A stretch of 64,000 bases of DNA, taken from the NCBI RefSeq assembly GCF_009914755.1, contig NC_060937.1; one strand, 5' to 3'. The notes under the pieces are model-generated. The model ran no database searches. It saw only the letters and a program-made list of their open reading frames with translations, and was not told the DNA's origin. Every line of letters begins with the position of its first letter. The stretch's first letter is position 1. The position numbers and the translations under genes are program-made. Positions 35,568 through 36,637 of the stretch are shown here, in pieces. This stretch comes from the human T2T-CHM13v2.0 reference genome, Homo sapiens.

Positions 35568-36336
35568 TCTTCATATAATCCAGCAATCCCACTACTGGAT
35601 ATATATCTACTCAAAGGAAAAGAAATTCATATATCAAAAAGATACCTGCACCCATATGTTTATTGCAGCACTATTCGCAATAGCAAAGATATGGAATCAA
35701 CCTAAGTGTCCATCAAGAGATGATTGGATAAAGAAAATGTGTCATATATACACAATAGAATATTATTCAGCCATGAAAAACGAGTGAAATCATGTCTTTT
35801 GCAGCAACATGGATAGAACTGGTGGCCATTGCCTTAAGTGAAACCACTCAGAAACAGAAAGTCGAATACTGCATGTTCTCACTTGTAAGTGGGAGCTAAA
35901 CAATGTGTACACATGGGCATAGAGTGTGGAATGATAGATATTGGAGACTTGAAAGGGTGGAAGCATGGGTTGGGTGTGAGAGATGAGAAATTATTTAATT
36001 GGTGCAATGAATTTTTTTTTTTTTTTAGACGGTCTCACTCTGTCACCCAGGCTGGAGTGTAGTGGCACAAATCTCAGCTCACTGCAACCTCCACCTCCCG
36101 GGTTGAAGAGATTCTCCTGCCTCAGCCTCCCAAGTAGCTGGGATTACAGGCATGCACCACCATACCCAGCTAATTTTTGTATTTTTAGTGGAGATGGCGT
36201 TTCACCATCTGGGCCAGGCTGGTCTCGAACTCCTGATCTCAAGTGACCTGCCTGCCTCGGCCTCCCAAAGTGCTGGGATTACAGGCGTGAGCCACCACAC
36301 CCAGCTAATGTGCCCAGCTAATGTTCATTATACTGG
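35568..36336 (+). mobile_element. L1PB4/L1MA-like 3' region, interrupted by an Alu and truncated at the second Alu
   Basis: atccagcaatcccactactgg...atgtttattgcagcactattc...tgttctcacttgtaagtgggagctaaacaatg...gatgagaaattatttaattggtgcaatg, resuming as aatgttcattatactgg after the first Alu. Confidence 0.85.
36012..36306 (-). mobile_element. AluS, left arm of an inverted pair
   Basis: Full dimeric Alu with poly-T at 36012-36026. Confidence 0.96.
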
Positions 36337-36339
36337 CTG

Positions 36340-36637
36340 GGCTGGGGGCAGTGGCTCACACCTGTAATCCCAGCACTTTGGGAGGCCGAGGCAGGCAGGT
36401 CACTTGAGATCAGGAGTTTGAGACCAGCCTGGCCCACATGGTGAAACCCCATCTCTACTAAAAATACAAAAATTAGCTGGGTGTGGTGGTGCATGCCTGT
36501 AATCCCAGCTACTTGGGGAGGCTGAGGCAGGAGAGTCGCTTGAACCCAGGAGGTGGAGGTTGCAGTGAGCCGAGATTTGTGCCACTATACTCCAGCCTGG
36601 GTGACAGAGTGAGACTGTCTAAAAAAAAAAAAAAAAA
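36340..36637 (+). mobile_element. AluS, right arm of an inverted pair
   Basis: Full dimeric Alu with poly(A) at 36621-36637; no TSD found. Confidence 0.96.

What the first reader, a model, noticed from the sequence alone, without database searches (positions are those of the whole stretch)
36012..36637. Head-to-head Alu pair 33 bp apart that share private mutations (gene conversion or fold-back duplication)
Seen: Alu(-) 36012-36306 and Alu(+) 36340-36637 form a ~290-bp-arm quasi-palindrome. By hand alignment they differ at about 18 of ~283 positions (~94% identity). They share non-consensus changes: ttagacRgtctcac (2-nt deletion), tagtggcacaaatctc (1-nt insertion), catStgggccagg and ctgatctcaagtgacctgcctgcc. 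The spacer holds a micro-duplication (cccagctaatgt twice), the right Alu has no TSD, and the host L1 3' end does not resume after it. Established: closely spaced, highly similar inverted Alus are depleted in the human genome, are recombinogenic, and are strong ADAR substrates when transcribed. Inference: one arm was copied from or homogenised with the other by template switching or intra-strand conversion, making this a potential fragile or editing site.
Basis: partly seen in the sequence, partly recalled or inferred. Interest (0 to 1): 0.7.

Follow-up and report, generated by a model that had tools for sequence, protein, structure and literature searches.

The report
Alu copied back onto its neighbour
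Two Alu repeats facing away from each other 33 bases apart on human chromosome 13 share mutations found almost nowhere else in the genome, likely because a single fold-back copying error, an estimated 10-20 million years ago, wrote one over the other; it is a rare fossil of a known kind of error with no sign of function.

Summary
Confirmed. Alu(-) 36012-36306 and Alu(+) 36340-36637 differ at 18 of 282 columns (94%). Each is the other's best genome hit. A shared 16-mer occurs exactly twice in the genome, once per arm, and CpG decay direction agrees at 12 of 13 sites, so a minor subfamily is ruled out. Differences are spread evenly, which fits one copying event about 15 Myr ago (6-31, assumed rate) rather than ongoing conversion. 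New here: the host L1 resumes for about 20 nt inside the spacer, and its probable target-site duplication (TSD) directly follows the right poly(A). The right Alu therefore sits where the last ~85-95 nt of the L1 were. Best reading: one reverse template switch, probably entering through an older head-to-head Alu and rejoining at the L1 poly(A). The geometry is common (the known, unexplained 24-36 bp head-to-head excess; 1101 vs 319 motif hits); the identity is rare (0 of 53 other full-length short-spacer pairs reach 90%). One sampled chr1 locus is a clearer fold-back twin. No gene is annotated in the window, and fragility is probably low. No ape orthologues or reads could be checked.

The parts
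35540..35553 (+). probable 5' copy of the host L1's target-site duplication, preceded by TT
   Evidence: 12 of 14 match to 36635-36648, best in 35400-35600; elsewhere in the window 1 such site on + (35500-36700 left out) and 4 on -
35569..36011 (+). 5'-truncated old L1 3' end (host); start uncertain by about 15 nt
   Evidence: 35780-36011 is 81-85% identical to 39 other genome copies; 35572-35931 is 75% identical to the L1-like stretch at 13678-14032; 5' edge from the hub mask; the name L1 is recalled
36012..36306 (-). left Alu, full length (AluS-like, label recalled), probable donor
   Evidence: host L1 continues on both sides of it
36060..36075 (-). private 16-mer, left copy (T insertion plus G>A)
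36300..36324 (+). 13-bp tandem duplication over the left Alu head and the spacer; without it the spacer is 20 bp
36320..36339 (+). host L1 sequence resuming inside the spacer
   Evidence: in-register match 11-14 of 17, above any other place in the same locus, in 9 of 12 L1 relatives; background about 4.6
36335..36344 (+). 5-nt tandem repeat at the L1/right-Alu junction (the Alu's first five bases occur twice)
   Evidence: sequence
36340..36637 (+). right Alu, no TSD, probable copy; stands where the last ~85-95 nt of the L1 would be
36572..36587 (+). private 16-mer, right copy
36635..36648 (+). probable 3' copy of the L1 TSD, directly after the right poly(A); also resembles the bases beyond the left poly(A) (11 of 14)

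Best explanation
The two Alus share a copying history after insertion, and the likely cause is one reverse (fold-back) template switch that wrote the left Alu's sequence into the right position and rejoined at the host L1's poly(A), dropping about 85-95 nt of L1 tail. Shown: private shared mutations, even residual divergence, L1 resuming in the spacer, L1 tail missing, no right TSD. Inferred: the switch entered through an older right-hand Alu that had inserted head-to-head at the same endonuclease site. The nascent strand paired with the left Alu's head, copied about 280 nt through its poly(A), and returned at the next A-rich tract (order 3-2-1-4 in the four-point model). The product would have been a near-perfect 300-bp palindrome, which has since drifted to 94% over roughly 15 Myr (6-31). 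It is predicted to be a neutral fossil with at most mild fragility.
For: Copying: reciprocal best hits; 16-mer found 2 times in the genome. With CpG positions left free, the right-monomer motif has 4 matches and the left-monomer motif 48, and no third locus is in both lists. Seven shared non-CpG events including two indels; CpG direction 12 of 13, P=0.003 at background 0.53. One event: even spread of differences. Rejoining at the L1 poly(A): tail absent and probable L1 TSD right after the poly(A). Older right Alu: identity starts at the Alu head; 4 of 18 differences lie in the first 11 of 282 columns, including the only discordant CpG (raw P=0.003; weaker once CpG density is allowed for, about 1 in 36 by hand); the spacer size fits the common two-insertion class. 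The process occurs elsewhere: at L166 both arms carry the same truncated Alu followed by the same nested antisense Alu, 86-98% identical per 50 columns over about 450 columns.
Against: No orthologue was available, so the order of events and the pre-event state are inferred. No right TSD remnant shows that an older right Alu existed. The left TSD is also not detectable. The TSD match is 12 of 14 and has a competing reading as copying about 10 nt beyond the left poly(A). A complete one-off conversion plus a separate deletion between the two A-tracts gives the same sequence. On private shared 14-mers the pair scores only 5, against 14, 7 and 5 for three of 100 other pairs; that background holds the pair's own best hits.
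Confidence: 0.5

Rival explanations
1. De novo fold-back duplication: no right Alu existed. The strand switched at the L1 junction onto the left Alu head by microhomology, copied the whole Alu, and returned at the L1 poly(A). An Alu was gained without retrotransposition.
For: One event explains no TSD, the missing tail, the L1 TSD after the poly(A) and full-length sharing. The junction repeats the Alu's first five bases. The right flank resembles the bases beyond the left poly(A) at 11 of 14. Proximal repair-mediated duplications of this size inside transposons are described (PMC2671141).
Against: The copy starts exactly at the Alu head, which is unlikely for an arbitrary fold-back. The 5-nt motif is present twice rather than shared once. 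Differences are in excess in the first 11 columns.
Confidence: 0.3
2. Two independent insertions homogenised by one or more recombinational gene conversions, with the L1 tail lost separately (at insertion, or by slippage between the two A-tracts).
For: Conversion between neighbouring Alus within about 10 kb is described (Aleshin and Zhi as summarised in PMC8230782). L167 has two elements that both seem to keep TSDs yet are 95% alike over 115 nt; permuted pairs reach 94% in 23 of 4006 cases.
Against: It needs two rare events. There is no mosaic of young and old tracts. Short-spacer pairs as a class are not homogenised: mean 80.5% vs 80.2% permuted; genome-wide CpG concordance odds ratio 1.15, CI 0.81-1.62.
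Confidence: 0.13
3. Both copies came from one source element or minor subfamily, or the left Alu's own RNA was inserted next to it.
For: The right element has full Alu limits and a poly(A), as an RNA-derived copy would.
Against: No third carrier of both motifs exists in the genome. Twelve shared CpG decays mean an already decayed template. No TSD.
Confidence: 0.05
4. Assembly artefact.
For: Palindromes can yield chimeric reads (own knowledge); reads were not available.
Against: The arms differ at 18 columns, 7 of them plain CpG transitions, a pattern of ageing rather than of sequencing error. The right flank is single-copy.
Confidence: 0.02

Closest known systems
Short-range template switch, type 3-2-1-4 of the four-point model (Loytynoja and Goldman 2017, PMC5453318; Loytynoja 2022, 10.1101/2021.11.26.470150)
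   Same: An upstream stretch is copied in reverse complement and replaces the stretch ahead, leaving an inverted repeat with an uninverted spacer.
   Different: The copied piece is about 280-295 nt and is a whole Alu. The 2017 survey filtered out repeat-masked pieces. The 2022 high-quality set averaged 11.6 bp, although its unfiltered set reached 318 bp, so events of this size may be among its discarded hits.
Head-to-head Alu pairs with 24-36 bp spacers, 'Type 3 / head-to-head APE' (Cook et al. 2011, PMC3215922)
   Same: Orientation, full length and a 33-bp spacer.
   Different: Ordinary members have unrelated arms (mean 80.5%) and mostly their own TSDs (47 and 49 of 69 against 25% false positives). 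This pair has 94% identity and no detectable TSD. The passages and supplement part read propose an insertion bias and do not discuss arm identity.
Repair-mediated duplication (Pace et al. 2009, PMC2671141)
   Same: A short proximal copy (mean 162 bp, max 619 bp) inside an interrupted transposon, with deletion and small junction changes and no retrotransposition marks.
   Different: Here donor and copy are 33 bp apart and inverted, the deletion is about 90 nt against their 1-15 nt, and the copied unit is an Alu, which their filter for nested transposons would likely remove.
Non-allelic gene conversion between neighbouring Alus (Aleshin and Zhi 2010, seen only as cited in PMC8230782 and PMC3670932)
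   Same: Neighbouring Alus share non-diagnostic mutations.
   Different: Here the sharing spans nearly the whole element including indels and coincides with a flanking deletion.
Engineered inverted-Alu quasi-palindromes in yeast (PMC10164571; review PMC7999016)
   Same: About 300-bp arms at 94% identity.
   Different: The fragile constructs have 12-bp spacers; this natural pair has 33 bp, beyond the 20 bp at which recombination had already fallen about 40-fold.

Membership tests
Head-to-head 24-36 bp Alu pair class | Two full-length adjacent Alus, poly(A) tails pointing apart, spacer 24-36 bp | tested here: met
   295 and 298 bp, spacer 36307-36339 = 33 bp; definition
Ordinary retrotransposition (TPRT) insertion, right Alu | Flanking target-site duplication | tested here: not met
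   None found, while 49 of 69 right-hand Alus in other pairs scored one (control 174 of 690)
Ordinary retrotransposition (TPRT) insertion, left Alu | Flanking target-site duplication with host sequence continuous across it | tested here: inconclusive
   Host L1 resumes in register, but only 4 nt are duplicated and the scan found no TSD
Template switch 3-2-1-4 | New segment is the reverse complement of a nearby upstream segment | tested here: met
Template switch 3-2-1-4 | The stretch between switch points 1 and 4 is replaced | tested here: met
   L1 tail missing, probable TSD follows the poly(A); ancestral state taken from L1 paralogues, not from an orthologue
Template switch 3-2-1-4 | Ancestral allele shows that copy and loss arose in one step | not testable with these tools
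   no primate genomes held (no relatives)
Minor Alu subfamily | Other copies carry the same diagnostic changes | tested here: not met
   2, 4 and 48 matches for three motifs; no third locus in both degenerate lists
Concerted evolution by repeated conversion | Mosaic of recently homogenised tracts | tested here: not met
   P=0.25 and P=0.37 for departure from an even spread; low power with 18 differences
Concerted evolution by repeated conversion | Arms cluster by species in a primate tree | not testable with these tools
   no orthologues
AluS (Sz-like) subfamily label | Diagnostic positions against a curated consensus | not tested
   no consensus library on hand; the label is recalled
ADAR-edited inverted Alu pair | Both arms in one transcript, edited sites seen | not testable with these tools
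   no gene annotated in the window (hub table); no expression data

The most novel reading that the evidence does not exclude
This is one of an uncatalogued class of 'Alu twins': tens to a few hundred human loci where fold-back copying at an Alu head wrote a whole Alu, or a multi-Alu block, in inverted orientation. Some would be gains of Alu copies without retrotransposition that pass for insertions, and each would have begun as a near-perfect 300-500 bp palindrome that survived in the germline. One further clear case turned up among 69 sampled short-spacer pairs (1.4%, CI 0.04-7.8%). The dated twins would give a natural measure of how long such palindromes persist.
Probability: 0.4. Interest if true: 0.55.

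Novelty: new variant of a known kind. Interest (0 to 1): 0.35.

Why it matters
At this locus it probably has no function. Its value is as a datable record that a reverse template switch can copy a whole Alu in the primate germline, at a size and in a sequence class that published surveys filtered out. Such copies would distort Alu dating and insertion-based phylogeny. Comparing it with its class also gave a simple, testable reading of the unexplained 24-36 bp head-to-head peak: two TSDs back to back at one site cut on both strands.

Tried and rejected
Minor-subfamily origin: rejected. The idea that fold-back copying explains the whole 24-36 bp excess: rejected. 0 of 36 full-length pairs reached 90% among 49 fetched (49 of the 50 listed, of 1101; one duplicate locus left out; 13 aligned under 250 columns). 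0 of 17 did among 20 more that were chosen as CpG-concordant and so enriched for twins. Genome-wide CpG concordance was not in excess (274 vs 252, P=0.43). Long-spacer control: 31 of 50 listed were fetched (those with a third Alu inside the spacer, and the end of the list, left out); 24 were full-length, mean 81.2%, one at 90.5%. Ongoing conversion: no mosaic. Right flank as an L1 tail or a repeat: no match (that search skips common words). A clean entry microhomology: not established, because the 5-nt motif occurs twice. Private-14-mer screen: flagged L113 (real twin), L133, L114 and L131; the last three rest on one or two substitutions each and look like chance or subfamily sharing. The first projection included mis-trimmed arms and was replaced by blastn. 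Covariation of summed TSD length with spacer length was not significant (P=0.12). Lobachev 2000, Aleshin and Zhi 2010 and Stenger 2001 were not held; they may already note such similar pairs. Eight literature searches listed no paper on this locus or on whole-Alu fold-back twins; most subscription papers are outside the library.

Full report
Observation. The window holds a full-length Alu on the minus strand at 36012-36306 and one on the plus strand at 36340-36637, heads 33 bp apart. They are 94.2% identical over 295 columns, with 18 of 282 body columns differing. Other full-length Alus in the window match them at 77-87%. A 13-bp tandem duplication covers the left head and part of the spacer.

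The shared changes are private. Each arm's best genome hit is its partner (453 bits; next 402 and 389, 91%; 40 candidates scored per search). A 16-mer covering the shared T insertion and G>A change occurs 2 times in 3.1 Gb, once in each arm. With CpG positions left free, that motif has 4 matches and a left-monomer motif has 48; no third locus is in both lists. Against 141 other Alus the arms share seven non-CpG events, including two indels. Where both arms have lost a CpG, the direction agrees at 12 of 13 sites against a background near 0.53 (P=0.003; three sites left out as ambiguous). One arm was therefore copied from an already decayed partner.

One event and its age. The 18 differences are 7 CpG transitions, 3 other changes at CpG sites, 7 non-CpG substitutions and 1 indel. 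They are evenly spread (longest identical run 58, P=0.25; KS P=0.37), with limited power. Seven of 236 non-CpG sites gives about 15 Myr (6-31) at an assumed 1e-9 per site per year; other plausible rates give 10-21 Myr. The one irregularity is 4 differences in the first 11 columns (raw P=0.003; about 1 in 36 by hand once CpG density is allowed for), which hints that the right head predates the copy.

Flanks. Left of the pair lies the 3' end of an old L1 (81-85% to 39 other copies; the name is recalled). The spacer 36320-36339 continues that L1 in register in 9 of 12 relatives. The remaining ~85-95 nt and poly(A) seen in relatives are absent after the right Alu, and 36638-37400 is single-copy. 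Bases 36635-36648 match 35540-35553 at 12 of 14; that site follows TT and lies just upstream of the L1's 5' edge, and such a match occurs at 5 other places on the two strands of the window. This is probably the L1's TSD, so the right Alu stands where the L1 tail was. The same bases resemble those beyond the left poly(A) at 11 of 14, which could have helped the strand rejoin or could mean the copy ran slightly past the Alu. No TSD was found for either Alu.

Its class. Cook et al. 2011 (PMC3215922; passages and supplement part 2 of 4 read) report 24-36 bp head-to-head pairs as the only inverted class that outnumbers direct pairs (3,464 in hg18), with the mechanism left open. A motif count here gave 1101 pairs at 24-36 bp against 319 at 150-162 bp. 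Sampled members are not twins: mean 80.5% against 80.2% for permuted partners, 0 of 36 full-length at 90% or more among 49 fetched, and 0 of 17 among 20 more. Genome-wide concordance at one CpG shows no excess (odds ratio 1.15, CI 0.81-1.62). The geometry is common and the identity exceptional.

A second case. At L166 (G000:C1:32118600-32121600) both arms carry the same Alu cut at about position 202, followed by the same antisense Alu. Identity is 86-98% per 50 columns for about 450 columns and then falls inside that second Alu. The rest of the cut Alu is present only on the left. Independent insertions cannot give this; it is a DNA-level inverted copy from left to right that probably left the template through Alu homology. 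It supports the process, not the history of the chr13 pair.

Mechanism. The anatomy fits order 3-2-1-4 of the four-point template-switch model (PMC5453318; abstract, Results part 1 of 3 and passages read): leave after the spacer, copy the left Alu backwards through its poly(A), return at the L1 poly(A). Whether a right Alu already stood there cannot be settled. I favour it (0.5) over de novo creation (0.3) because identity begins at the Alu head, the tip is more divergent, and the spacer has the size of the two-insertion class. Conversion plus a separate deletion gets 0.13, same-source or local RNA origin 0.05, and mis-assembly 0.02. These odds are judgement.

Function. No gene is annotated in the window, so editing is unsupported and untested. 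In yeast, a spacer of 20 bp instead of 12 cut recombination about 40-fold, though 94% pairs become active in long single-stranded DNA (PMC10164571, passages). Primate cells stalled at 12 bp but not at 52 bp (review PMC7999016, passages). Fragility at 33 bp and 94% is likely mild, and survival for millions of years agrees.

Comparison and novelty. Template switches, repair-mediated duplications (PMC2671141, passages) and Alu conversion (PMC8230782 and PMC3670932, passages) are known. The switch surveys removed repeat-masked pieces, though the unfiltered 2022 set reached 318 bp (preprint passages; its supplements are closed and may list such events). Eight searches listed no description of this locus or of whole-Alu twins; three key older papers were not held. 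Verdict: a real, rare, probably neutral variant of a known kind. Interest 0.35.

Noticed in passing
L166 (G000:C1:32118600-32121600), arms about 983-1478 and 1522-2018: A second fold-back twin, about 450 columns long, in which both arms carry the same truncated Alu and the same nested antisense Alu; the copy ends inside an Alu. Clearer evidence of DNA-level inverted copying than the focal pair.
   Followed up: partly
L076-L124 and L168-L187 (head-to-head pairs with short spacers): Spacers look like two TSDs back to back at one site cut on both strands. 41 of 49 hold a TT(N)AA motif against 25 in shuffles, with a T-rich first half and an A-rich second half. Median TSD lengths are 15 and 14 against a median spacer of 30; where both TSDs are 13 nt or longer, their sum is within 4 nt of the spacer in 12 of 15. 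The permutation test over all 34 was not significant (P=0.12). A simple reading of the unexplained 24-36 bp peak.
   Followed up: partly
L167 (G000:C1:415700-418200), 947-1232 and 1276-1396: A full Alu facing a left monomer, 95% alike over 115 nt, both apparently with their own TSDs (by eye); possible partial conversion or chance (permuted rate 23 of 4006).
   Followed up: partly
window 36665-36720: Two 22-nt copies 34 bp apart (86% alike) just downstream of the right Alu's junction; an old local duplication, relation to the event unknown.
   Followed up: no
window 19837-20144 and 45515-45821: Two inverted Alus 25 kb apart are 92.9% identical, well above other pairs in the window; young subfamily or conversion not tested.
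   Followed up: no
window 39228-39271: 22-nt tandem duplication, 95% identical.
   Followed up: no
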